DNA from: an uncultured Armatimonadetes bacterium
GTDB taxonomy: Bacteria > Armatimonadota > Hebobacteria > Hebobacterales > Hebobacteraceae
Reading direction: 5' to 3'
Assembly: GCA_963716175.1 (NCBI GenBank)
Contig: OY970296.1
Coordinates: 2,080,001-2,144,000 of the forward strand
Length of the DNA: 64,000 bases
Part shown: in pieces, positions 9,470 to 57,557 of the stretch
How positions within the stretch are numbered: the stretch's first letter is position 1
Layout: each line of letters opens with the position of its first letter
Position numbers and translations under genes: made by a program
Notes under the pieces: model-generated
The model's database searches: none
The model's input: the letters and a program-made list of their open reading frames with translations, nothing else
Told to the model about the DNA's origin: nothing

Positions 9470-9680
9470 TGCCCAGGAGAGGTACCGTGGTGAGGTGGCC
9501 GACGGCCCCGGCCACCCCCGACTCCGGCTGCCCCCTCGGCTGGGAGGCATTGCCAGGGTCTCCGTCACCACCCATCGTAGACGACTCTTCCCCGACACGC
9601 GAGTCACAGCCTTCCGGTTGGCGGTGTGATGTCAGGCCGGCTTCAGGCGTGCCTGGCAGGGGCAGATCGGCTCCGGTACA
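9470..9680 (+). repeat. Near full-length copy of the dispersed element family
   Basis: Contains core cacccccgactccggctgccccctcggctggg (9513) and ttccccgacacgcgagtca (9588); ends ggggcagatcggctccggtaca. Confidence 0.7.
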
Positions 9681-13643: not shown

Positions 13644-13797
13644 TGCCAGATACCTCCGGGCACCCCCCGACTCCGGCTAGCCCCTCGGCTTGGGGTCACT
13701 GTCCGGGGTTCCGTCGCGGATGCGGCGAGCTTGCTCCCCGGGAGAGAACGGCGCCCAGAGGCGCCGCGCAGAAGCCCTGTGTGGCAGAGTATCTGAG
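13644..13797 (+). repeat. Copy of the dispersed element family
   Basis: Starts tgccagatacctc immediately after the RRM stop; core caccccccgactccggctagcccctcggct..ggtcactgtccggggttccgtcgcg; ends gcagagtatctgaga. Confidence 0.7.
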
Positions 13798-13839: not shown

Positions 13840-14847
13840 CTACTTGACACCCACAGACCGCCCGGATCTTGCCCGCCAATCTTGCAGAATGGCGTCCATC
13901 ACTTCACTGGTGCGGAGAGCGGTCTCTCCGGTGCTGGGGCAAGGGGCGACGCCATTGAGGGCGTTCACAACCGTCTGGATCAGCGGCTGCTGAACGTGGG
14001 CTGGCGTCTCAGTCTGGTGCAAGGTGACACCGTCTCCCGTATGCAGCTCGATGGGTTCGGCGCCGAAGGTGGAGAAGCGCAGCTTCCCCCGCGAGCCGAC
14101 GATCTCATTCATGTCGGCAGAGCATCCGTCATGGGCGGTGAAGCACCAGATGCCGGCGCCTAAGACGGCGTCCGGGAAGCTCAGGGTGGCGGAGACGCAG
14201 TCCTCGGCCGGGTAGAGGCCAGCCTAGTTCACGGCCATCCCGTTCGTCTTGACAACAGGGCCGAGGAGGAAATCCAGGATGTCCAACGTGTGTGAGGCCA
14301 GATCGAGGAAGAGGCCGGCACCAGCGATGTCGGGCACCACCCGCCAGGGGAGATGCTTGGGGTCGTAAGCGTCGGGGGCGCTGCACAGGGTCACAGTCAC
14401 GAATCGAACCTGGCCGATGGCCCCCTGCTGCAGCAGCTCCTTGATCTTCAGGAAGCGTGGCAAGGCCCGGCGATAGAAGGCCACGAAGAGGGGAACCCCG
14501 GCTTCCCGGCAGGCGGCGATCATCTGCCGGCACTCATCTGCAGTACGCGCCATGGGCTTCTCCACATAGACGGGCTTGCCCGCACCCGCGGCCTGGATCG
14601 CGTAATCGGCATGGGTGGAGGGAGGCGTGGCGACGTAGACAGCATCCACTTCGGGGTCGTGGATCAGCCGACTCGCGTCGTCATACCAGCGGGGCACTCC
14701 GTGGCGTTCGGCGTAGTCCTTAGCCTTCTTACCGTCCCGGCGCATCACCGCCACTAGCTGCGAGTGCTCGGCCCTCTGAAATCCGGGGCCGCTCTTCACC
14801 TCGGTCACGTTCCCGCACCCAATGATTCCCCAGCGAATCGTCCGCAT
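13840..14847 (-). pseudogene. Gfo/Idh/MocA oxidoreductase with in-frame TAG at 14224-14226
   Basis: IRWGIIGCGNV, VYVEKPMA, GAGLFLDLASH; the same frame continues after TAG as AGLYPAED...HVQQPLIQ. Confidence 0.85.
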
Positions 14848-17364: not shown

Positions 17365-17814
17365 CTACCGGGTCACGTTTCGGTGCGGGGCCCCGTCATC
17401 CTTGGCGCGGGAGGGCCCGCCGCGCGAGCCGCGGTCATGGGCCTTGATGCCGGACTCCATCGCCGGGGCGCCGGCCTCGTGAGCACCCACGTCCAGGGCC
17501 TTCCCGGAGAAGTCATCATTGAAGCTGGGAATCCGGACACCGGCGTCGTAGCCGGGGCTGCCGCGGGCTAGCCAGAACCGGCCCGGGCCATTCCCGGAGT
17601 CACTGCCGGGCTTACGCTTGATGCCGTGGACCTCCTGGGCGCCGGAGGCCCTGATGTCGCCGCTGAGGAGGTCATAGTCCAAGTCATTGGCGAGGCTGGT
17701 GGTTCTGTCGCCGATGCTCTCAGAAGAATCCGACTTGACGTGGAGGATATTGTTCCTGAAGGTGATGCTGAAGACCTCGCCGCCATAGCTGGAGAGGCCG
17801 ATTTTGCACCCGAG
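17365..17814 (-). pseudogene. C-terminal fragment of a right-handed beta-helix protein
   Basis: FRNNIL...LDYDL...LARGSPGYDAG..IP.FND.F.G.A.D.GA.E tail; no N-terminus, cut at the repeat starting 17815. Confidence 0.55.
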
Positions 17815-18087
17815 TGTCCGTGTCAACCACCCGTGAAGCCGGCCTGGGCGCACCCCCGGCTCCGGCTACCCCCTCGGCTGGTGTCACTGTCCGGGGTTCC
17901 GTCGCGTATGAGACGTGACCAACTAGGGCACGGCAGGGGCTGAGTGCTGGAGGCCCCGACCAGTCCAACCCCGCTCACCATCCCCGCCCATCCTCGCCGC
18001 CTCCCAGTACAGGAGTCCCAGCGAGCGCCGAGAACACCTCGATTGGGGCTGCAGGAGCCTCCCGGGGGGCAGATGAGTATCTGGACA
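17815..18087 (+). mobile_element. Longest copy of the MITE-like element (TGTCC...GGACA)
   Basis: Starts tgtccgtgtcaacc, contains both conserved cores, ends gcagatgagtatctggaca. Confidence 0.6.
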
Positions 18088-18143
18088 GGGCACCATCGCC
18101 GAACTGGAAAAGGCGCTTGTGTGCCTGAGAGGAGACCGCAATC

Positions 18144-19496: not shown

Positions 19497-19572
19497 TGGT
19501 GCCGAGTCCCAGAGTCGAACTGGGGACGCCGGGATTTTCAGTCCCGCGCTCTACCACCTGAGCTAACCCGGC
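19497..19572 (-). tRNA. tRNA-Phe (GAA)
   Basis: Reverse complement GCCGGGTTAGCTCAGGTGGTAGAGCGCGGGACTGAAAATCCCGGCGTCCCCAGTTCGACTCTGGGACTCGGCACCA: cloverleaf, GAA anticodon, encoded CCA. Confidence 0.97.
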
Positions 19573-21052: not shown

Positions 21053-21113
21053 CGACTGAGGTCCACCGCCTGGCTGCAGGGCCTCCTTACCCCGCTCTGA
21101 ACCTGCGACCTCG

Positions 21114-21205
21114 TGTCCGTGTCAGCCGCCCGTGAGGCCGTCCCAGAGCGCCCCCAGCTCCGGCTACCTCTCCGGCCTAGGACCACTGCCGGGCAACAGC
21201 GCGTC
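21114..21205 (+). repeat. Left-half copy of the dispersed element
   Basis: tgtccgtgtcagccgcccgtgaggcc...cccccagctccggctacc aligns with 17815-17870. Confidence 0.7.
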
Positions 21206-21372: not shown

Positions 21373-22395
21373 ATGGCTGAGCACGAGCCGTCCGGCGAGC
21401 AGCACTCGGTAGGAAGCGCGGCACCAGGCCCCAGGCTACGCGCCATCGCCTGGTGGCGGTTCGGGGTTGCTGGCGCAGCGCTGGTTGTGATGGCCCTTCT
21501 GACGCTGTGGGGCTGGCGCGAGGCGCAGAAGGGGTGCATGTCGGGTCTTGCGCTCTTGGCAGCGCTCCTGGTGGACGCGGTCCTTCTGCCCTCCTTCGTG
21601 CTTCCGTCGTTGGTCATCGCCTGGCGCCTTCCCCGGCGCCCCCGCCCGGCAGTCCGGCTGGCCCTCCTTCACGATCTGGTGATAGTGATTGTCTCGGTTC
21701 TGGTGGTCATCTCCCTCTTGCGCCAACCCTGGGGATGGGAGCCGCTGGGACTGCTTAGGGACTCCGCCCCCTGGGTGGGACTCGGCCTCGTCTTTGGGGC
21801 CGAGGGCGGATACCTTCTGCGTGCGGTGGTGAGGTGGCGACCGGCCTGGCCCGCTTACGGGCTCCTCGCTGCTGGCCTGGTCGCGGCAGTCACGGTCATT
21901 CCGAGGGTCGTCCATGCCCAACGGGCGCGACACGTCCGGCCGCTCCTCGCCTACATGAACGCTCACTGGGTCAAAGTCCCACCCAGCGCTCGCCTGAGGC
22001 TGGGAGGACGCAGCACCGGCCCCGGCACACACACAGACTACATCTCGGTACAGGGGCAGGACACCTTCTGGCATGTCTCGGCCGAACACGGTCGCGACGG
22101 ACGGTGGGCATTCCCCGTGCCTCACAAGATCGATTTCCCCACGTTTTCAGGCGGCCCCTACCCAGGCACTTCAGGGCGCGTCTCATCCTTCGATCAGGCG
22201 AAGGCGCTGTTGCTACGGTGCGGTGTGGCGGATCCGGGTCTCCGCCCAAAGCGAGTGATCACAGGCAGCGTCGCCGAGTACGAGCTCTGGTCGCCGCTGG
22301 GCCAGGGATACTATCGGGTGACCCAGGCCGTCTACATCAGGTTCTTCCTCCAACACCCGCTGACGGTGCCGTCGCGTCCGCCTGGGACAGCATGA
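21373..22395 (+). CDS. Hypothetical membrane protein (about 5 N-terminal TM helices plus a soluble C-terminal domain)
   Basis: Hydrophobic segments in the first half; RBS ggaga. Confidence 0.6.
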   Translation: MAEHEPSGEQHSVGSAAPGPRLRAIAWWRFGVAGAALVVMALLTLWGWREAQKGCMSGLALLAALLVDAVLLPSFVLPSLVIAWRLPRRPRPAVRLALLHDLVIVIVSVLVVISLLRQPWGWEPLGLLRDSAPWVGLGLVFGAEGGYLLRAVVRWRPAWPAYGLLAAGLVAAVTVIPRVVHAQRARHVRPLLAYMNAHWVKVPPSARLRLGGRSTGPGTHTDYISVQGQDTFWHVSAEHGRDGRWAFPVPHKIDFPTFSGGPYPGTSGRVSSFDQAKALLLRCGVADPGLRPKRVITGSVAEYELWSPLGQGYYRVTQAVYIRFFLQHPLTVPSRPPGTA

Positions 22396-22481: not shown

Positions 22482-23151
22482 CTAGAGCGCGCAGCGATTC
22501 GCCGGCAGATCGGCAACCTGGGCCTGCAGATCCTCGACCTCCAGGTGGGTGTAACGCTGGGTTGTCGTCACCCAGGCGTGGCCCAGCAACTCCTGCACCG
22601 CCCGGAGATTGGGCCGGGCGCGTAGGGCGTGGGTGGCGAATGCGCCAGAGGCGCATGAAGGTGTGGCGCAGCAGGTGGGGGCCGGAGCGATCGGTGATGC
22701 CGGCCGCCCGCAGATCCCGATTCACCAACAGCGCAACGCCGCGTACGCAGAAGCGGTGCCCGCTGCGATTCAGAATGAGTGCGGGCTCAGTACCCTCGCG
22801 GTCTGAGAGATAGGCCAGCAGCGCGTCGGCGGCGGGGCGGTTGATGGGCAGCCGACATAGCCTCCGCCCTTTGCCCACCACCTGCAGGGCGCCCCAACCC
22901 TCGGCGGGCAGGCGCAGGTCCTCCCTGCTCAGGGCGCACAGTTCCCCCACTCGCAGACCGGTGTTGTAGAGCAGCATCAGGATGGCGCGGTCCCGCCGGC
23001 CCGTGGGCGTATCGGGGGAGGGCAGGGAGAGCAGGCGCTGGACCTCCTCGACCGTGAGATGCTTGGGCGCCAGCGATGGACCGAGGCGGATGGAGCGCAG
23101 CGCCTGCGCGGGGTTGGTCTCCAGTCGGCCTTCTTCAAAGAGGAAGCGGCA
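22482..23151 (-). pseudogene. XerC/D-like tyrosine recombinase, N-terminally truncated, interrupted by a 19-nt hairpin insertion (22638-22656)
   Basis: RDRAILMLLYNTGLRVGEL, VVGKG, HLLRHTF then shifted ATHALR...[17 protein letters not shown]; 3' end approximate. Confidence 0.9.
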
Positions 23152-23752: not shown

Positions 23753-23933
23753 TGTCCTCTCTAGAAGCTCCATCCTGGCGCCGCGACCGGAGGCGCGGGT
23801 CCATTAGAGCAGGAGATGGGGGTCGAGCAGGGTTGATGCCCATCACGCGGAAGCATCCCAAACGACGGCCCCGGGCACCCCCGGCTCCGGCTACCCCCTC
23901 GGCTGGGAGGCAATGTCCGGCGTCCTGTCACCA
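23753..23933 (+). repeat. Copy of the dispersed element family
   Basis: 23753-23815 matches 673-735; 23864-23933 matches 9501-9570. Confidence 0.7.
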
Positions 23934-24254
23934 ATGATGAACAGCGCCGGCGCTGATACGGGATGCGACCCTCCCTCGGTTAGCCCGCTCGCCGGGTGCT
24001 CGACGGCAGGCCCCTTCCTCGGCACGCAGACCGAAGTTCCAGCCCCTTCCACGTGTAGCTATCGTCCAGGGACGTGGCGGAGTGCCCATCAGACACCGGA
24101 GCATGCCCCCACGCTAACGTTGGGGCGGTTCTGGGGTGCAGTAACCACTTCGCACGCGCCCTTGTTCGGCAGTCCTGAACTCCTACAGCGGGATGCGCCT
24201 GGAGGGAGCCACCTGCCCTCAGCGAAGTGGGCAGGTGGGGCGGAGGGAGGTCCC

Positions 24255-25569: not shown

Positions 25570-25863
25570 CGCATCCTCTGCCGCCGCCATTCTGAATCCT
25601 CTATGCCTCCCAGCACAGGTGTATCGACGAGGGGAGAGAATGCCACGAGAGAGGCTGCACGAGCACCCTGGGAGCTGGATGAGTTTCTGGACATGACGCG
25701 AGGCATGGCAGGGGACGAGTGCCGGAGGCCCTGCCCAGTCCGATCCCCGATCGCATCTCCGCCCATCCTCGGCGTCTCCCAGCACAGGGGTGTCAGCGAG
25801 TGCAGAGAAGAGCACGACTGAGGCTAGGCTAGCGCCTTGGGGGACAGATAGGGTTCTGGACAG
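25570..25863 (+). repeat. Two tandem right-half copies of the dispersed element (about 25570-25693 and 25745-25862)
   Basis: ctcccagcacagg...gagaa...gaggct...gat(g/a)(a/g)g(t/g)ttctggaca twice. Confidence 0.7.
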
Positions 25864-33764: not shown

Positions 33765-34087
33765 CCTAGCCGATGCCCCCGAAGTGGTTCGCCGGCAGTT
33801 CGGCAACCTGAGCCTGCAGATCCTCGTCCTCGAGAATGGGTGTAGCGCTGGGTGGTGGTCACCCAGGCGTGGCCCAGCAGCTCCTGCACCGCCCGCAGGT
33901 TGGGCCGGGCACGCAGGGCGTGCGTGGCGAATGCGCCAGAGGCGCATGAAGGTGTGGCGCACCAGGTGGGGGCCGGAGCGATCAGTGATGCCGGCCGCCT
34001 GCAGGTAGCGGTTCACCAATAGCGCGATGCCGCGCACGGAGAAGCGATCCCCGCTGCGATTCAGGAAGAGCGCCGGCTTCGTCCCTA
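33765..34087 (-). pseudogene. Second XerC/D-like recombinase C-terminal fragment with the same 19-nt hairpin insertion (33929-33947)
   Basis: PALFLNRSG.RFSVRG...GPHLVRHTF / ATHALR...[15 protein letters not shown]; paralogous to 22495-22795. Confidence 0.88.
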
Positions 34088-40448: not shown

Positions 40449-41594
40449 ATGACGAAGGCTCACGCGCGAGTGACTGTTCTCGTTCTAGCCTGGATGGCTG
40501 CACTGCTGGGGACTGTCGGCTGCGGCGCTTGGCGCTCTGGCGAACGGGACAGCAGCCTTCTCCAGCGGGAGACGCTCCGCTATGGTACCTACCCAACCTG
40601 GTCAGCAGATGCCCGGAGAGCGGCCGTCCTGGGGAGAGGAGGAGATGGCTACTACGTGGTCCTCTTGGATGCCTCGACAGAGAAGCCCAAGGTAGTCGCA
40701 CGTCGGCCGATCCCTGGCAACGAACCTCCAAGCATATACTCCGCACTGGATGCGACCGGAGCCACGTTGTACTACATTGTCAAGCGAGGAGCGGAGCCGC
40801 ACATACTGAGCATGTGTCTTGCCACCGGCGACGTGAGAGACGTTGTGCGCGGCGTTGACCCGACTCCAAGCCCCGCAGGGCGCGATGTGGCATACGTGTA
40901 CGCGGCTTCGCACGATCTCGCAGAGGGGCTCGCCCTGTATCTTATGCACGAAGATGGGCGCAACGAGAGACTGACCTCTCAGCTTTTCGTGGAGCGATTG
41001 GTCACCTGGTCTCCGGACTCGAAGTGGCTCACTTGCCTGGCGAAGCGGATCGAATCGCCTCGGTATCCAGCCGCTCCGGAGTCTCTCATGTTGGTGTCAT
41101 TGGACTCCACGGCTCCAGAGCAGATCGAAGTGGGGAGGGGAATTGGCGAAGCGTACTGGGCCGTGGGATGGCGTAATCCAAACACCCTCGTATTCATCGC
41201 CTCCAAGGCTGATGCGAATCGGCAGAGCGTGTGGGGGGTCCTGTCCTATGACGTCCGAACCGGTAAGCGCGGCGAGATAGTCCCATTCGGAAGGATGCAT
41301 ATGTCGTTCTCGTCAGTCCAGGTATCCCATGACGCGACGATCGGCCTGTGGCAAGTTTCCGACAACGACAACCGCGCCTTTCGTGTGGCGGACCTGGACA
41401 CAGGTGATTCGGCTGAGGTCCGATTCCCTGAGGGTGTGCATAGCAGCCTATCGCCGAACGGTACGAGCATCCTCGCAGTAGGTCTGGACACGGGATCGGT
41501 TTTCTATGCTCACGGACGGATTCCCGAGAAGACGTGGGACGTGGAGAAGCTCTTGGCCGGAACCGCCGGAGGCGAGACTAGGCCTCGCGAGTAG
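40449..41594 (+). CDS. Putative lipoprotein with TolB-like beta-propeller
   Basis: Lipobox-like GTVG-C; PTWSAD, PSPAG, TWSPDS, SLSPNG repeats; lower GC than neighbours. Confidence 0.7.
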   Translation: MTKAHARVTVLVLAWMAALLGTVGCGAWRSGERDSSLLQRETLRYGTYPTWSADARRAAVLGRGGDGYYVVLLDASTEKPKVVARRPIPGNEPPSIYSALDATGATLYYIVKRGAEPHILSMCLATGDVRDVVRGVDPTPSPAGRDVAYVYAASHDLAEGLALYLMHEDGRNERLTSQLFVERLVTWSPDSKWLTCLAKRIESPRYPAAPESLMLVSLDSTAPEQIEVGRGIGEAYWAVGWRNPNTLVFIASKADANRQSVWGVLSYDVRTGKRGEIVPFGRMHMSFSSVQVSHDATIGLWQVSDNDNRAFRVADLDTGDSAEVRFPEGVHSSLSPNGTSILAVGLDTGSVFYAHGRIPEKTWDVEKLLAGTAGGETRPRE

Positions 41595-41609: not shown

Positions 41610-43083
41610 TTGCCCGCAAGAACGGATGCAGGTGGTGTTAGCGTGAGTTGCGGCGCTGTGGGCGCTACCGTACGCGGTGGCCGCTCGCCGCAGGTGGCGG
41701 ACTGCGGGGGCGGATGGACATGCGTGTGCATGGGACCCAGGCCAAGCGCCGGGCCAGGGGCTCCGGCGGGCCGGCGCATCGAGGTCTGGGCCGACCCGAA
41801 GAGCTGCGACTGCGAGAAGCCTGGCGATCCCTGCACCTGCCAGATGCACGAGCGAGCCTGGCAGGACAGCCAGCTACTGAAAGACGCGCAGTGGGAGGCT
41901 GGGGGCACGTGCCAGAAGGCCGGGGCCGCGGGCGGAGGAGGGGGCGGCGGCGCGGGTGGTGGCGGTGGTGGTATGGGCGGCGGTGGGGGCATGATGGGTG
42001 GTGGAGGGGGCATGGGAGCAGGTGCAGGTGGAGGGGGCGGTGGCGGGGGAACTGGCACGGGTGGCCGAGGGACTGGTGGTGGAGGCGGCTCGGGCGGCTG
42101 TCTGCCAAAGTCCGGGTGTAGACACGAGCAACACAGCGATGGCTGGTATGTGAGATGTCGCTGCAACGAGGGGGATAAGCGGTCGTGGCAATGCCTGTGC
42201 CCACATCCTGAAGACTGGATCAGCCCGGGCCAGGGGCGGGGAGGGTGGGCGCTCCCCGCGCTCCCGGAAAGCTGCAATGGCTGCCACGCGGCGGGAGATC
42301 CGTGCACCTGCCATTCTCTGGCTGATCCGCAAGCCGGGGCCGCTGGGCCAAGGACCCCCACACGTGGCCGACGAGAGAATCGTCACCGGTAAGTGCGTGC
42401 TCTGCGGAACAGGAGGTGGAGGAGGCGGAGGTGGCGGAGGAGGCGGAGAGGGAGGCGGGGCGGCATGTCCTCGTGCTCATGGCGAGGAGGAGTTCAAGCT
42501 AGGGCCCGGCGCGTCATGGACGGCGTGGTGGAAGTTCAGCAACGCTATCCGCCCATATCACCGTGCGCACTTGTCTTGGCCTGAGGGCCCGACGGTGCCT
42601 TTGGAGGACTGCTGGAACATGGACCTCCTGGCGGCCATGAACAGCTTCATTGAGCTCAACTGCAATCGCTTCCTCCAGAACGCTGTTGCGTTTATCGAGA
42701 ACCAACTGCAGCCTGGCCAGGCGCGCAACATACTCTCCATTGAGGCCGGAACTGGCCTGAACTGGCACACTGTGGGCAAGTGCTCAGGCTGGTTATTCAA
42801 CAACCAGCTCGGCAACAGCCTGCTCTTCGGTAGAGGATGTGCAAAGCTCACGGACGCGGGGTTTACCTTCGACTTCGTCTGGAATCTGGAGGACACATGG
42901 AAAGCGTTCGGGGGGTGGGAAGCGCTTCCCAACATCAGCTTCTTTGTCGATGCCAGGAAGCGCTGGACCTTTCATTGGCAGCGGGGCAAGTTCGGGGACC
43001 AGAGGTGCACCTTCGATCCTCCGCCGGCAACTACGTGCTACCCCACGTGTGATCCTGGGAGGCAGGCCAATTGCAGTATGTGA
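41610..43083 (+). CDS. Cys-rich module / poly-Gly linker protein with unique C-terminal domain (frameshift near 42312; N-terminus probably missing)
   Basis: Two CxC..GDPCTC modules separated by Gly tracts, then a ~205-aa non-repetitive domain. Confidence 0.6.
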
Positions 43084-44051
43084 GGCAGCAAGTCTCGCGG
43101 GCATTAGTGCAGTGCGGGGCTGCGGCTGCGGCACTGGCTGGAACCATCGTGGCAGCTCGGTACTTGGCTACCGGGAGCTGGGCTCCAAGAAGTCCCTGGG
43201 GTGTAGGGTCATTTCTGGTTGCGGAGCTCTTTCTGGCTCCGCTCGGCGGGTTGCTTGTGGCCGGCGGCGCGCTATGGCGCCTGTTTGGGAGCCGCGGGAG
43301 CAGAGGCCCGACGAGGGATAATGACGCGGACTCCGTGCGACGTACCATTCTACTGGTCGTAACGGTCATTGTAGCGTTGCTGTCTGCGCTGCTTTTTGCG
43401 GGAGCGCCTTACTTCGTCTCGGCGCCAGTGAATCCTGTGGTGCTGAGCTTGATGCTCGGCTTGGCAGCTTCCCTCTTCAGCGGTCTTGCGCTAGGTCTCA
43501 TCCTGCAGTGTAGGGAGGGCCATCGTGCCGGTTTTGGTGGCCTTGTGGCGGCGGCGACAGTCACAGGCGCGCTGCTCCCCCCAATGATCGTGGCACTTCT
43601 CGTAGCGAGAACTGCATTTCCATCAGCGTCACGTGCGTTCGAGTGGGGGCGGTATGGGTTCCGGCCTGCGGTGCAACTTAGGGACTTGGGCCCCATCACG
43701 CACAAGCTGAGGATGCGTTTCCCTCCAGGAACACGTGTTGCAGGAGGCGAGTTCATCGCTGGCCCAGGGGAGCATCTGTTCGGGAAAATCGAGATCCCAG
43801 CCGCGAGTATACGGCAGTTCCTGAATGGCCAGTCGTTCCAGTGGGGCTTCGCGCGCAAGGCGGCCGACGTTACCATGAATCTGCGTCCCGAGGTCCTGCG
43901 CGGCATCGCGGGTAAGACTCAGGTTGTCTACGCCGGAGCCAACACGCCGAGAGACACAGATTTGCTGTGGGTCGTGCTGTGCAGCGACAAGGGTAATGCG
44001 GTCCTGACGTACCTATGCTGGTGCCGAACAGACGAGGAGGCCGTGTGGTGA
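43071..44051 (+). CDS. Hypothetical membrane protein (about 5 TM plus soluble domain), candidate immunity protein
   Basis: Overlaps the upstream stop; hydrophobic N-terminal half; start codon uncertain. Confidence 0.6.
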   Translation: MQYVRQQVSRALVQCGAAAAALAGTIVAARYLATGSWAPRSPWGVGSFLVAELFLAPLGGLLVAGGALWRLFGSRGSRGPTRDNDADSVRRTILLVVTVIVALLSALLFAGAPYFVSAPVNPVVLSLMLGLAASLFSGLALGLILQCREGHRAGFGGLVAAATVTGALLPPMIVALLVARTAFPSASRAFEWGRYGFRPAVQLRDLGPITHKLRMRFPPGTRVAGGEFIAGPGEHLFGKIEIPAASIRQFLNGQSFQWGFARKAADVTMNLRPEVLRGIAGKTQVVYAGANTPRDTDLLWVVLCSDKGNAVLTYLCWCRTDEEAVW

Positions 44052-44159
44052 CGGCGGCGCCGAGAAAGAGACGAGCTGCTGTTCGACCGAGAGGGCCTGT
44101 GTGGGCATGGGCAGACCTACTGTTCTCGCGGGGACCGGCAACCGTGGGAGACAGTAAGT

Positions 44160-45175
44160 CGGAGCTGGACACGGCCAGAGCGGCGCGATCACCGCTGACA
44201 AAGAGAACTCGCCCTTCGTCGGAGGCGGTGGGAGCGCGACTGCCGGAGAGGCGGTGGTGACCGCAGTGGTGGCGCAAGCCGGGCCATATGCGAGCCTGGG
44301 GCAGGGCGCTGGCATGGGCAGCGGCGGGATGTATGGCGGTGGTGGTATGGGCGGCGGTGGGGGCATGATGGGTGGTGGAGGGGGCCTGGGAGGAGGTGCA
44401 GGTGGAGGAGGTGGAGCAGGCGGTGGTGGCATGGGTGTTGACACGGGCGGAGGAGCAGGGGCCGGGGCTGATGGGGCCGGCGGGGGAGGCGCGGGTGGTC
44501 AGTGGCACGGGAATCTTAGCGTTCCTCCCTGGGCGGAAGGGTGCGGCTGGCCGAATGGACTGGTGGTGTGCCGGTGTCTGGACAGCGACGATTGGCTGTG
44601 CGTGGCCCGCAGCAAGGTGGGACCTCCCAGGGTGGGACCGGTTGGAGTCGCCCTGGGGATTCACAAGCAGAACTGGGTGGACAACCTGTTCTGCTCCTGC
44701 CGGGGCGAGGGCGACCTGTGCTGGGGGACCGAGCACCAGCGGGTGATCCAGGGGGGCAAGATCCTGAAGAACCGGAGCGAGCCGTTCGTGGGGCGGTGTG
44801 TGCGGCGCAGCACCTGGAGGCAAGGCGGCTGGGGCGGGGGCGCGGGCGGAGGGGGAGGTGCCGGTGGAGGGCGTGGCGCAGGTGGAGGTGGTGGCTTCGC
44901 CGGCGGAGGTGGAGGTGGCGGGGGCGGGGGTGGTGGCGGCGCAGGTGCGGGTGGAGGGGCAGGTGGCGGCGGAGGCGGGGGAGGTGCGTGTGTCTGGGGC
45001 CCAGGCCCAGCCCGGGGCCGGGGGCTCCGCCGAACGTGCGCTTCGAGATCTGGGCTGACCCGAAGAGCTGCGACTGCGAGAAGCCCGGCGACCCCTGCAC
45101 TTGCCAGGTGCACTGGCGGGTCTGGCAGGGCCAGCAGAAGATCAAAGATGCCCAGTGGGAGGCGCAGGGGCAGCG
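44160..45175 (+). pseudogene. Second Cys-rich/poly-Gly cassette, no clear start, truncated at a palindromic repeat
   Basis: 44335-44408 near-identical to 41961-42034; 44985-45163 paralogous to 41721-41898 (WADPKSCDCEKPGDPCTCQ). Confidence 0.6.
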
Positions 45176-45184
45176 AGCCCTCTG

Positions 45185-45312
45185 GTCATGCTGAGCCCTT
45201 CGACTGCGCTCAGGGTGAACTCCGCGAAGCATCCCGTCTTCGGTGTCTGTGGAAATGCCGTGATCCCTTCGCTGCACTCAGGGCAGGCCCTTCGAGTACG
45301 CCTCAGGATGAC
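45185..45312. repeat. REP-like palindromic element (gtcatgctgag...ctcaggatgac type)
   Basis: Outer inverted repeat gtcatgctgag / ctcaggatgac with internal cccttcg..cgctcaggg units; related half copy at 57681-57707. Confidence 0.7.
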
Positions 45313-45361: not shown

Positions 45362-45390
45362 TTGACACAGGCCCGCTCCTCTGCTATATT
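45362..45390 (+). promoter_or_regulatory. sigma70-type promoter
   Basis: TTGACA-17 nt-TATATT with extended TG. Confidence 0.7.
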
Positions 45391-49851: not shown

Positions 49852-50462
49852 CCGGCACCGCCTTTGCTGGTTGGGTGGGGGCGGCCGCTGCCTCCACGAC
49901 CGGGGCCTCCCTGGGGGGAGCGCTGGGCTTCACCGGGGCGGGAGGCCTGGCATGAGGCTTCGGCGCCAACATCATATTCATCATGCGACCCTCGAACCGA
50001 GGGGGCATCTCGAGTCAGCGCGACATCGGCCAGGTGCTCGGCGACCTGGTTGAGAAGCCGGCTGCCCAGTTCCGGGTGGCTCACCTCTCGGCCACGGAAG
50101 CGCAAGTTGATGCGAACCTTGTTGCCGTCCCCCAGCAGCTCGCGCAGCTTGCGCAGCTTGATCTCAAGGTCGTGCGGCCCGATCTGGGGCTTCAGCCGCA
50201 GCAATCGCACCTCGGTGGGCTTGCTGCGCTTGTGGGCCTCTCGCTCCCGCTTGGCCTGCTGGTACTTGTGCTTCCCATAGTCCATAATCCGGCAGACCGG
50301 GGGCTGCGCGTTGGGCGCCACTTCGATCAGGTCGAGTTCTCGCTCGCGGGCGACCCGCAGCGCCTCGCGAGTCGCCATGATCCCCAGTTGCGCGCCGTTC
50401 TCGTCAATCAGGCGCACTTCCCGAGCGCGGATGCGCTCATTCACCCTAACCTCACGTTCGAT
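49766..50462 (-). CDS. infC: Translation initiation factor IF-3, probable ATC start, 1-nt frameshift near 50015
   Basis: VNERIRAREVRLID, PPVCRIMDYGK, FRGRE; C-terminal PRFEGRMMNMMLAP in another frame; GGAGGTGA 7 nt before ATC. Confidence 0.92.
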
Positions 50463-52344: not shown

Positions 52345-54458
52345 CTACTGCTCGGCGATGGTGATGCGCGCGTCCAGCGCCACTGCGCCGGCCCCGGGCT
52401 CGCCCACCTTAAGTGGGTTGACGTCCATCTCCACGATCTCGGGAAAGTCGGTGACCAACTGGGAAAGGATCAGCAAGCAGTTGACGATCGCCTCCAGATC
52501 GCAGGGCCGCTCCCCGCGCTGCCATGCAGCAGGGGAGCGGCGCGGATCTCCTCCACCATGCGCCGTGCGTGGCGGGGCCCGAAGGGGGCCACCCGGAAGG
52601 TCACGTCTCTCAGCACCTCGACATAGATGCCGCCGAGCCCGAACATCACCAGAGGGCCAAACTGAGGATCGCGGGTGCTGCCCAGGATCACCTCCCGGCC
52701 AGAGGGCACCATCTCCTGGACCGAGACGCCGCGCAGATCGGCGTTCGGCGCGAAGCGCCGGATGCGCAGCATCATCAGCTCGAATGCGTCCATCGCCTCC
52801 TGCCGGCTGCCGATGCCCAGCCGCACCCCGCCGACATCCGACTTGTGGAGGATGTCCGGCGAGACGATCTTCATCACCACCGGGTATCCGATCTCGTCGG
52901 CGTGCCCGGCCGCCTCCTCCGCGCTGTGGGCGAGGGCGCTCTTGGGGACCCGGATGCGATAGGCCTGAAGCACCTCCCTGGCCTCCAGCTCGCCGAGGTT
53001 CACGCGCCCCTGCTGGTGGATGCGATCGAAGATGGCCCTGACCGCCTCCTGATCCCCCGGGAAGCACACCGCCTCATCTGGCGGCTCCTCTCGCCACTCC
53101 TGATAGCGAGCCATCTCGGCCAGGGCCTGCACCGCACGCTCGGGGAAGGGGTAATTGGGCACCCGGTGGCGGCCCAGGAAATCCGTCGCCTCTTTCATAG
53201 CATCGCCCCCCATGAAGCAGGCGAGCACGGGTTTCCGGCAACCAGACATGGCCCGGGCAAGCTCCTGAGCGGTGGCTCTGGGCTGAGTCACGGCCTGGGG
53301 CGTGAGCAAGGCGATGGCCGCATCCACGCCATCGTCCTTGAGCACGGTCTCAGCGGCAAAGCCATAGCGCTCAGCATCGGCGTCGCCAAGGGCGTCGATC
53401 GGGTTGTAGAAGTTGGCCGCCTCCGGCAGGCGGGTGCGCAGCGCCTCCACCGTCTTGGGATCGAGGGAAGCCAGCTTGAGCCCCTGCTTCTCCACGGCAT
53501 CGGTGGCCATGATGCCCGGGCCCCCGGCGTTCGTGATGATCGCCACTTGGCGCCCGCGGGGAAGCCCCTGGTAGGCAAAGGCGATGGCGAGGTCAAACAG
53601 CTCCTCCAGCGAGTGGGCGCGGATCACCCCTGACTGCAGGAAGGCGGCGCTGTAGGCTTGCTCCAGGCCGGCGAGGCTGCCGGTGTGAGAGGAAACGGCG
53701 CGAGCGCCAGCCTGCGTGCTGCCGGATTTGACCACGATCACCGGCTTGCGCGCCGACACCTGCCGCGCCACCTCCATGAACTCCGGACCGTGCGCCAGAC
53801 CCTCGATGTAGGCCACGATCACTTCGGTCTCGGCGTCATGCTCCCAGGCGCGGAGGAAGTCCACCACCCCCACGTCCACCCCGTTGCCGAAGCTCACGAA
53901 CTTGCTGTAGCCGATGCCCTGCTGCACGGACCAGTCCAGGATGGCGGTGGCGAGCGCGCCCGACTGAGACATGAGCGCGAGTGAGCCGCGCTTGGGGAAC
54001 ACCGGGGCGAAGGAGGCATTGAGGCCGGTGGCGGTGGCGATCACCCCCAGGCAGTTGGGGCCCACCACCCGAATGCCATGGCGCCTGGCCACTTCCGCGA
54101 GCTTGCGCTCCCTCTCTACGCCCTCCGGACCCGCTTCCTTGAAGCCGGCCGAGATCACCACCGCGGCGGCGATGCCTTTCTGGCCGCACTCCTCCATCAC
54201 CGCCCCCACCGCGGGCGCGGGCACCACCACCACCGCCAGGTCAACAGGGCCCTCGATATCCAGGACGCTGGGATAGCAGGGCCGGCCCAGAATCTCGGTG
54301 GCGTGAGGGTTGATGGGATGGACGGCTCCCTGGTAGCCGGAGGAGAGCATATTGCGGAGGATATCGTGGCCCACCTTGCCGGGCCGGGTGGAGGCGCCGA
54401 TGATGGCCACCGAAGCGGGGGCGAAGAAACGTTGCAGTGCGGTGTTGCCGGTGGCCAC
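52345..54458 (-). CDS. Acetate--CoA ligase (ADP-forming) family, alpha+beta fusion; 1-nt frameshift near 52520
   Basis: VAIIGAS, GPNCLG, SQSGAL, SHTGSLAG, TNAGGPG, HKSDVGGV, DPQFGP; tail EMDVNPL...ALDARI in another frame. Confidence 0.92.
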
Positions 54459-56253: not shown

Positions 56254-57557
56254 CTATCGCGGCTTCTCCCACTTCTCCAGCTCGGCCAGCTCGCCGTAAG
56301 TGCCACCCCGGACGATCTCTTCCCGAATGCGGTTCTCCCGCTCATACCACTCCATCCCCCGGTTCGCCCATTCCACGGCGTGGTCTCGCGGGATGCGAAC
56401 CACTCCGTCATCGTCGCCCACAATCCAATCGCCCGGCTCCACCACCTCGCCGGCGATGGTGATGGAGACCCCGATCTCCCCCAGGCCCCTGGGCTCGCCG
56501 GCGTTGGGGCAGATGTGACGGGCGAAGGCCGGGAAGTTGAGGGAGCGGATGTCCCCGCTGTCGCGGATGGCCCCGTCAATCACCACCCCGGCAACTTTCC
56601 GGTTCATGGCGCTGCGGGAGGCCATCTCCCCCACACCGCGGGCGGCACGCCACCGGCCTCGATCACGATCACCTCCCCTGGCTTGGCCTGATCTATCGCT
56701 TCCACGGGCTTGGCGTAGTCGCCCGTCGCGGTCCTCACGGTGAGAGCGGGGCCCACCACCTTCATGCCAGGAGCAATGGGACGCAGGCCAGGCAGGACTC
56801 CCCGGCGATGCATGGCATCGGAGAGATTGGCGGCGGAGATGGCCATCAAGGTCTCCCGCAGCTGGCCCTCGGAGACGCGCTTATAGAGCGTGGTAGGAAT
56901 GCTCACCCCCTCCGTGATCGCCCGCTTCAGGTCGGCGGTAGCCTGCCTGGCATCGGGAGCCTTGGAGATCGCGCCTCCCACGATCACCACAGAGGCGCCT
57001 GCCTGCACGGCTTGCACGGCGTTCTCGGAATGGATGCCGCCGGCCACGCAGAGGGGCACCTCCACCGCCTCCGCCACCGCGCGCAGCAGCCGGAAGGGGT
57101 CGGCGCCGCGCATCTGCATATCTATCGCCACATGGACATCAATGAAATCAACCCCTAGCTCTGCCACCTGCCTAGCTCTTGCTATGGGATCGGCCGCACC
57201 TAACAGGTCGGCCACGATCTTGGCGCCATACTCGCGGCCGGCCTCGACGCATTCGGCAATGGTTGGGTCCGGGGCGGCGGCCAGGACATGCACGATCTGA
57301 GCTCCCGCCTTGGCCGCTGCCTCCACCTCGATGCGGCCCGCGTCCATGACCTTCATGTCCGCCGCGATCGGCAGCTTGGGGAATTGCCCGCGCAGAGTCC
57401 GAACCACATCCAGGCCAACGCTCTTGATCAGGGGGGTGCCGGCCTCCAGGATATCCGCACCCCCGGCGACGGCCTCGGCCGCCACCTTGAGGGCGCGGTC
57501 GAGCTCCAGGAAATCGAGCGCGACTTGAAGGAGCGCTGCTTGCGATCGTTCTCTCAT
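56254..57557 (-). CDS. 3-hexulose-6-phosphate synthase (HPS/KGPDC) fused to an RraA/HMG-aldolase domain; 1-nt frameshift near 56630
   Basis: LQVALD, LEAGTPLIK, DMKVMDAG; then NLSDAM..., AVWG|EMA...VIDGAIRD, PGDWIVGDDDGVV. Confidence 0.88.

What the first reader, a model, noticed from the sequence alone, without database searches (positions are those of the whole stretch)
41610..45175. Shuffled Cys-rich modules on poly-Gly linkers with a unique tip and coupled membrane gene: candidate new polymorphic system
Seen: four ~65-100 aa modules share approximately CxC...CxC-x3-GD(P/L)C...GxC and are separated by long Gly/GGM tracts. Cassette 1 is A-G1-B-G-tip followed by an overlapping multi-TM gene; cassette 2 is G1-B'-G-A'. 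A and A' share WADPKSCDCEKPGDPCTCQ..KDAQWEA, and the G1 linker DNA is 72/74 identical (41961-42034 vs 44335-44408), yet the module order is permuted and B/B' are highly diverged. Neither cassette has a signal peptide or clear start. Known: Rhs, CdiA and MafB loci keep orphan tip+immunity cassettes with conserved DNA anchors for recombination. Inference: an analogous system in which Gly-codon tracts act as recombination anchors that swap disulfide-rich domains and tips onto a full-length gene elsewhere. I saw no Rhs core (DPxG) or Hint motif.
Basis: partly seen in the sequence, partly recalled or inferred. Interest (0 to 1): 0.75.

Follow-up and report, generated by a model that had tools for sequence, protein, structure and literature searches.

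The report
Rhs tip cassettes, new disulfide domain
This is a cluster of spare warhead ends of a known kind of bacterial competition protein (Rhs). Each carries an undescribed cysteine-rich domain between glycine spacers that seems to be swapped separately from the warhead, so it is a new variant rather than a new system.

Summary
The modules, glycine tracts, tip and coupled membrane gene are real. The system is not new: it is tied to Rhs. Outside relatives of module A (84% identical over 81 aa) and of B' (70% over 111 aa) each sit 34-54 residues after the end of an Rhs core (DPSG; TIGR03696 partial matches, below cut-off). A third relative carries module A with a different tip. So this is most likely a parentless array of Rhs C-terminal cassettes. 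What is new is the ~90-110 aa module. It has no Pfam, NCBIfam or PHROGs match, a confident all-beta model (pLDDT 80) with no clear PDB match, and cysteines gained and lost in pairs. It occurs in three types, and here in tandem. B and B' are different types, not a diverged pair. Not shown: a full-length parent gene, toxicity, immunity, or that the glycine tracts are the recombination anchors (one recent exchange, 72/74 nt, supports it).

The parts
40449..41594 (+). Secreted or membrane-anchored beta-propeller (TolB-like) gene; first gene of the island; possibly an immunity gene that has lost its tip (inference)
   Evidence: TIGR02800 E 3.2e-6, far below cut-off; PD40 E 0.0023; one N-terminal hydrophobic segment; GC3 0.68 vs 0.76-0.88 in six host genes
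41643..41915 (+). Lead-in (possible GTG start) and module A
   Evidence: 84% identical over 81 aa to P0004, where it follows an Rhs-core end; 78% over 85 aa to the start of P0005; GC3 0.82
41928..42098 (+). Gly tract G1; core 41961-42034 nearly identical to G1'
42099..42405 (+). Module B, a divergent type with the fuller Cys set; frame break between 42312 and 42393
   Evidence: GC3 0.68
42412..42462 (+). Gly tract G2
42463..43083 (+). Unique tip, 206 aa, 9 Cys, no hydrophobic segment; putative toxin domain, activity unknown
   Evidence: only a self hit among 45 candidates; no family, Atlas or PDB hit; model unusable, pLDDT 35
43071..44051 (+). Gene with 5 predicted TM segments and a soluble C-terminal part, overlapping the tip stop; putative immunity gene
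   Evidence: Atlas leads only to unnamed clusters at 0.88-0.89; GC3 0.67
44254..44499 (+). Lead-in and Gly tract G1' of cassette 2 (core 44335-44408)
44500..44820 (+). Module B', a third type; 8 Cys; predicted all-beta
   Evidence: 70% identical over 111 aa to P0007 637-747; AlphaFold pLDDT 79.7, pTM 0.71; GC3 0.85
44821..44981 (+). Gly tract G3, ending at the frame break
44982..45194 (+). Module A', short at both ends; no tip or immunity gene follows
   Evidence: GC3 0.89
45185..45312 (.). Right border: element with inverted GTCATNCTGAG ends that supplies the A' stop; the label REP-like is recalled, not tested
   Evidence: two exact inverted matches, though the motif count in the window is not above chance; folding no better than shuffles

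Best explanation
The island is an array of displaced C-terminal ends of Rhs (YD-repeat) polymorphic toxins, kept with immunity-type genes and without a parent gene nearby. In this lineage the cargo released at the DPxG site begins with a Gly-rich linker and a disulfide-bonded all-beta domain, followed by a second Gly linker and a variable tip. Shown: the position of the module after an Rhs-core end in two relatives; a different tip on the same module; three module types; one recent exchange of a Gly tract. Inferred: (i) the module is a pre-toxin targeting or entry domain that works outside the cytoplasm, like the CdiA-CT entry domain (about 0.35 on its own); (ii) because Gly-codon tracts lie on both sides of the module, out-of-register recombination between them swaps tips and modules independently and produces the tandem A-B and B'-A' forms (about 0.45); (iii) the tip attacks the cell envelope and the 5-TM protein blocks it (about 0.5); (iv) cassette 1 becomes active when recombined onto an Rhs core elsewhere in the genome, while cassette 2 has lost its tip.
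For: P0004 begins with the last 20 positions of TIGR03696 (57-76/76, E 0.012, the only family hit), then 34 residues, then module A. P0007 has the same profile positions at 564-583 (E 1.3e-5), then a 54-residue linker with 15 Gly, a B'-type module and a 45-residue tract with 25 Gly. P0005 has the same lead-in and module A, four Gly and an unrelated Cys-rich C-terminus. Window A is closer to outside P0004 (45/52) than to its neighbour A' (38/52), and B' to P0007 (40/55) than to A (17/52), so the copies come from a shared pool and not from local duplication. GC3 is host-like in A, A' and B' (0.82-0.89) and lower in B, tip, TM gene and propeller (0.67-0.74; binomial p 1e-4 or less against 0.85). 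Cys 36 and 76 are both absent in B' and P0007 and both present in the other 6 of 8 rows; Cys 15 and 24 are both present in B' and P0007 and absent in the A-type rows that cover them. Rhs orphan reactivation by recombination is shown in PMC3967940, and Cys-conserving, exchangeable CdiA-CT entry domains are described in PMC9086364 (passages).
Against: Only 4 outside relatives were found, none is a full-length Rhs protein, and both core matches are below the curated cut-off. P0007 is odd: a peptidase-like N-terminus and an insertion in the core end (read by eye). No core remnant or parent lies in the window, unlike classical orphans. The GTDB scan found only 2 chance hits among 34 candidates. The tip has no relative and no usable model, so toxicity rests on context alone. 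The Cys pairings reflect one or two evolutionary events among related rows. The gene neighbours of the relatives could not be seen, so coupling of tips to varying immunity genes is untested. None of the 4 relatives shows two modules, so the tandem forms are known from this locus only.
Confidence: 0.62

Rival explanations
1. Rhs-derived debris. The tandem modules are accidental deletion products between neighbouring cassettes, the frame breaks are real, and the island is kept only for its two immunity-type genes.
For: A' lacks both ends and joins G3 out of frame at an 8-nt word (GGAGGTGC) that also occurs in Gly frame in G1' and G3. Cassette 2 has no tip. No parent is nearby. The relative P0006 also leaves the module frame near its end (by eye). 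Orphan-only arrays kept for defence are proposed in PMC8125069 (passages).
Against: Tip, TM gene, A and B' are each open and keep their Cys sets; dN/dS A vs A' is 0.32, though this may predate orphaning. Similar breaks occur in host genes of this assembly, so the breaks may not be real.
Confidence: 0.2
2. Cassette 1 is a stand-alone expressed gene (start 41643, about 480 aa if the break is an error) whose modules bind a surface or partner; it descends from Rhs but no longer needs a core.
For: GTG with a weak Shine-Dalgarno-like stretch upstream (sequence); P0005 is called from the same codon with the same lead-in; expressed cassettes with start codons exist in MafB loci (PMC4287609, passages).
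Against: No signal peptide in the lead-in (by eye), so a Cys-rich protein has no evident export route; no sigma-70-like promoter inside the island.
Confidence: 0.1
3. A categorically new polymorphic system unrelated to Rhs.
For: No core in the window; the module has no family or fold match; no full-length parent seen.
Against: Two different module types each follow an Rhs-core end in independent proteins.
Confidence: 0.05
4. The duplication is a misassembly of G-rich repeats.
For: The assembly has base-level errors; G1 holds 52 nt of exact identity.
Against: A and A' differ by 20% with a synonymous bias; B' has its own outside relative; the tip's record lies on a 4,560,930-bp contig, which suggests long reads (inference). 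At most the G1 identity could come from polishing.
Confidence: 0.03

Closest known systems
Rhs orphan CT/immunity modules (Salmonella LT2, PMC3967940; bee gut arrays, PMC8125069)
   Same: Displaced tip plus coupled downstream gene, in an array; relatives tie the cargo to the DPxG end of an Rhs core; tips vary on a shared N-terminal part.
   Different: No full-length rhs gene upstream and no retained core DNA (Salmonella keeps 522 bp at 95%). The shared DNA lies after the cleavage site: a conserved folded module and Gly tracts. Modules occur in tandem.
CdiA-CT cytoplasm-entry domain (PMC9086364)
   Same: Exchangeable domain at the N-terminus of the released cargo, ahead of a variable toxin, with conserved Cys.
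   Different: No FHA repeats or VENN domain found here; the characterised entry domain is helical and molten, this module is predicted all-beta; no receptor is known.
PT-TG and other pre-toxin domains (PMC13483458)
   Same: Small conserved domain between trafficking part and toxin, proposed as linker or envelope-interaction domain.
   Different: No Pfam match of the module to PT-TG or any other model; Cys/Trp-rich and confidently folded.
MafB-CT cassettes of Neisseria (PMC4287609)
   Same: Silent and possibly expressed cassettes, each followed by an immunity gene.
   Different: No MafB N-terminal domain, BIL/Hint domain or mafA found.

Membership tests
Rhs polymorphic toxin (orphan CT cassette) | Cargo follows an Rhs-core end with DPxG (tested on relatives) | tested here: met
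   TIGR03696 positions 57-76/76 in 2 of 4 relatives: P0007 E 1.3e-5, first 27 aa of P0004 E 0.012; both below cut-off; whole P0004 gave no hit
Rhs polymorphic toxin (orphan CT cassette) | Full-length YD-repeat parent carrying the module | tested here: inconclusive
   none among 26 and 8000 length-limited candidates or; rest of the genome not available
Rhs polymorphic toxin (orphan CT cassette) | Orphans lie downstream of a main rhs gene and keep part of the core as anchor | tested here: not met
   no core or DPxG remnant in the window; no Rhs Pfam hit in 60 of 357 ORFs chosen by codon pattern
Rhs polymorphic toxin (orphan CT cassette) | Variable C-terminal tips on a shared N-terminal part | tested here: met
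   module A precedes B and the tip here and an unrelated C-terminus in P0005; B'-type precedes A' here and a Pro-rich tail in P0007
Rhs polymorphic toxin (orphan CT cassette) | Cognate immunity gene directly downstream | tested here: inconclusive
   overlapping 5-TM gene after the tip, none after cassette 2; neighbours of relatives not visible
Rhs polymorphic toxin (orphan CT cassette) | Tip is toxic and specifically neutralised | not testable with these tools
   needs expression assays
Rhs polymorphic toxin (orphan CT cassette) | Orphan lacks translation start and export signal | tested here: inconclusive
   no signal peptide seen, but a possible GTG at 41643 shared with P0005
CdiA/CdiB (CDI) | FHA repeats, TPS domain, VENN pre-toxin domain, cdiB | tested here: not met
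   no such Pfam hit in cassette ORFs, relatives or 60 window ORFs
PT-TG / PT-VENN / PT-HINT pre-toxin domains | Profile match | tested here: not met
   no Pfam, NCBIfam or PHROGs hit for the modules
Colicin M-like tip (resemblance recalled from memory) | Colicin M catalytic fold and residues | tested here: inconclusive
   no Pfam, PDB-sequence or plasmid hit; tip model too poor to compare
Any solved fold (module) | Structural match | tested here: inconclusive
   best Z 3.3, rmsd 3.5, 68 aligned among 48,161 chains; Foldseek best E 0.24 in PDB and 0.09 in BFVD

The most novel reading that the evidence does not exclude
A lineage of Rhs toxins builds its cargo combinatorially: Gly-codon tracts on both sides of a disulfide-bonded beta domain, possibly of a new fold, act as recombination anchors after the cleavage site. 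Targeting modules of three types can then be swapped and stacked independently of the tip, and cassette 1 is an intact two-module cargo with two target specificities.
Probability: 0.25. Interest if true: 0.72.

Novelty: new variant of a known kind. Interest (0 to 1): 0.47.

Why it matters
How an Rhs cargo reaches its target after release is largely open outside T6SS systems (my own knowledge). A compact, folded, exchangeable domain right after DPxG gives a testable candidate for a receptor-binding or entry function, and its three types allow swap experiments. Anchors that lie after the cleavage site and consist of low-complexity codons would be a second route to tip diversification. The domain also merits a new profile. 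If the locus is only debris, the value shrinks to one new domain family.

Tried and rejected
No hit for module A among proteins of 456-2000 aa (0 of 26 candidates). Phage and plasmid collections: no match; 1 weak hit at E 10. PDB sequence searches uninformative. Tip fold without an alignment failed (pLDDT 35) and its Foldseek rows are meaningless. The module model has no clear structural match, which does not show a new fold. A DREGL word at 44085 looked like a decayed DPxGL but ranked 476 of 8520 windows; rejected as evidence. A colicin M-like reading of the tip and an SAA/lipocone-like reading of the P0005 tip are recalled resemblances with no profile support. The 4-TM gene at 21373 is not clearly related to the 43071 gene (E 0.18). 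Rfam and tRNA scans show nothing in the island. The L20 search did not place the organism; Armatimonadota is my guess from gene content (N-methyl/DUF1559 and SLH/PD40 genes). Cluster sizes and sources of P0004-P0006 could not be looked up. Metagenome and viral contigs and the rest of this genome stayed unchecked, so the neighbours of the relatives and a parent gene are unknown. Paper searches returned 0 papers; searches returned 3, 2, 1, 5 and 2 listings, and the passages read in six of these papers do not describe this module. No supplements were read; domain tables there, and subscription papers, could hold it.

Full report
Observation. The region 41610-45175 holds four Cys-rich modules on Gly tracts. 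A and A' are 79.5% identical over 210 nt and the G1 tracts 86% over 123 nt. The 74-nt core is 72/74 identical with 52 nt exact; the next best match in the window is 50/74, and all 18 paired Gly codons are the same. Five of six module pairs score above all 1000 shuffles; B against B' does not (127 of 1000). Differences between A and A' lean synonymous in the Cys frame only (dN/dS 0.32 vs 0.93 and 1.56). The modules are therefore real coding sequence, but B and B' are separate types.

Surroundings. The cassettes belong to an island of about 4.7 kb between a divergent DUF34/NIF3 gene and a host gene with its own promoter-like site at 45362-45390. It opens with a TolB-like propeller gene and ends at an element with inverted ends. 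GC3 is 0.82-0.89 in A, A' and B', within the range of six host genes (0.76-0.88), and 0.67-0.74 in B, the tip, the TM gene and the propeller. No Rhs, CdiA or Hint domain was found in 60 of 357 ORFs chosen by codon pattern or by motif and alignment scans of all six frames.

Relatives. A profile of the four modules found 3 proteins among 1.84 billion representatives, and a second search of longer proteins found 2 among 8000 scored candidates, one of them new. P0004 starts with the last 20 positions of the Rhs-core model TIGR03696 (E 0.012 on its first 27 residues, the only family hit), then 34 residues, then a module 84% identical to A. P0007 has the same core end (E 1.3e-5), a Gly-rich linker, a module 70% identical to B', and a further GGM-rich tract. 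P0005 has the window's lead-in and module A followed by four Gly and an unrelated Cys-rich C-terminus; P0006 has a Gly/Thr linker and module A. Both core matches are below the curated cut-off and neither protein is a full-length Rhs. Window A is nearer to P0004 (45/52) than to A' (38/52); the tree separates B' and P0007 from the rest and leaves B unplaced on a long branch. GTDB genomes, phages and plasmids gave nothing. The family is rare in what could be searched.

The module. With 8 rows, AlphaFold gives B' a five-strand all-beta model at pLDDT 79.7 and pTM 0.71. No solved or viral structure matches clearly (best Z 3.3), which leaves the fold open. Cys 36 and 76 are lost together in the B' type, and Cys 15 and 24 are absent together in the A type; B has Cys 24 and, by eye, an upstream partner that the aligner placed elsewhere. 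Paired gain and loss fits disulfides better than metal binding, but rests on one or two events.

The frame breaks. Four host genes that looked cut short were inspected. A hexulose-phosphate synthase/RraA gene is split between two frames (profile 3-307 and 305-428 of 430) at a GGGGGAG run. infC, an acyl-CoA ligase and an oxidoreductase also break; for infC and the ligase the continuation is recognised from memory. The A' break lies in the same GGGGGAG context. The assembly thus has base-level errors, and both cassette breaks may be artefacts. A real out-of-frame junction at an 8-nt word shared with the Gly tracts is the alternative for A'. Large-scale misassembly is unlikely: the copies are diverged, have outside relatives, and the tip's record lies on a 4.56-Mb contig.

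Tip and partner. The tip has only a self hit among 45 candidates of 147-469 aa, no family or Atlas hit and no usable model. It has 9 Cys, and its stop overlaps a 5-TM gene whose Atlas neighbours are unnamed and score under 0.9. Membrane or periplasmic immunity proteins accompany envelope-acting tips in PMC12419801 (passages and section 29), so an envelope target is my preferred inference; it is untested.

Mechanism. Most likely these are displaced Rhs C-termini. The cargo cut off at DPxG reads linker, module, linker, tip. The module is conserved while the tip varies, as for the disulfide-bearing entry domain of CdiA-CT (PMC9086364, passages) or PT-TG (PMC13483458, passages). With Gly tracts on both sides of the module, recombination out of register would delete a tip and its immunity gene and leave two modules in tandem. 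This explains A-G1-B, B'-G3-A' and the same G1 core lying after one module and before another. None of the four relatives shows two modules, so this step is inferred from one locus. Reactivation would need a core elsewhere, as shown for Salmonella orphans (PMC3967940, passages). The main rival is debris kept for its immunity genes (PMC8125069, passages).

Known versus new. It works like an Rhs orphan array and is tied to Rhs through relatives. It fails the classical layout, with no parent upstream and no retained core DNA, so I file it as a variant and not a plain member. Four paper searches gave no paper and five gave listings; the passages read, including PMC4287609, do not describe the module. 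Supplements were not read. Verdict: real, Rhs-associated, new variant with an undescribed domain; interest 0.47.

Noticed in passing
window 49990-50020 (-), 56620-56640 (-), about 52475-52500 (-), 14224-14226 (-): Frame breaks in infC, a hexulose-phosphate synthase/RraA fusion and an acyl-CoA ligase, and an in-frame TAG in a Gfo/Idh/MocA gene: the assembly probably has uncorrected base errors.
   Followed up: yes
window 41592-41594: The propeller gene's TAG is in the same frame as module A; if it were a base error the propeller would be fused to cassette 1.
   Followed up: no
P0007: An HELMH-containing, peptidase-like N-terminal region (read by eye) is fused to an Rhs-core end that carries an insertion of about 35 residues, then the B'-type module.
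   Followed up: partly
P0005 160-261: Its tip has a DKxxHC...DxxAN.G pattern recalling SAA/lipocone toxin tips (from memory); no Pfam hit.
   Followed up: partly
window 22490-22787 and 33780-34078 (-): Two 88% identical remnants of a tyrosine-recombinase-like gene (label from reading the translation), both interrupted.
   Followed up: partly
window 21373-22395 (+): Orphan gene with 4 predicted TM segments and a soluble tail beside the first recombinase remnant; layout like the 43071 gene but no clear similarity.
   Followed up: partly
window 44052-44253: Unexplained spacer before cassette 2 with a DREGL word and CxHG pattern faintly like the start of the P0007 cargo; not above chance.
   Followed up: yes
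window 9500-9570, 13656-13722, 17814-18088, 21113-21176, 23863-23937, 25596-25863: Families of short dispersed intergenic repeats, 72-92% alike.
   Followed up: no
window 19497-19572 (-): tRNA-Phe, the only RNA gene found.
   Followed up: no
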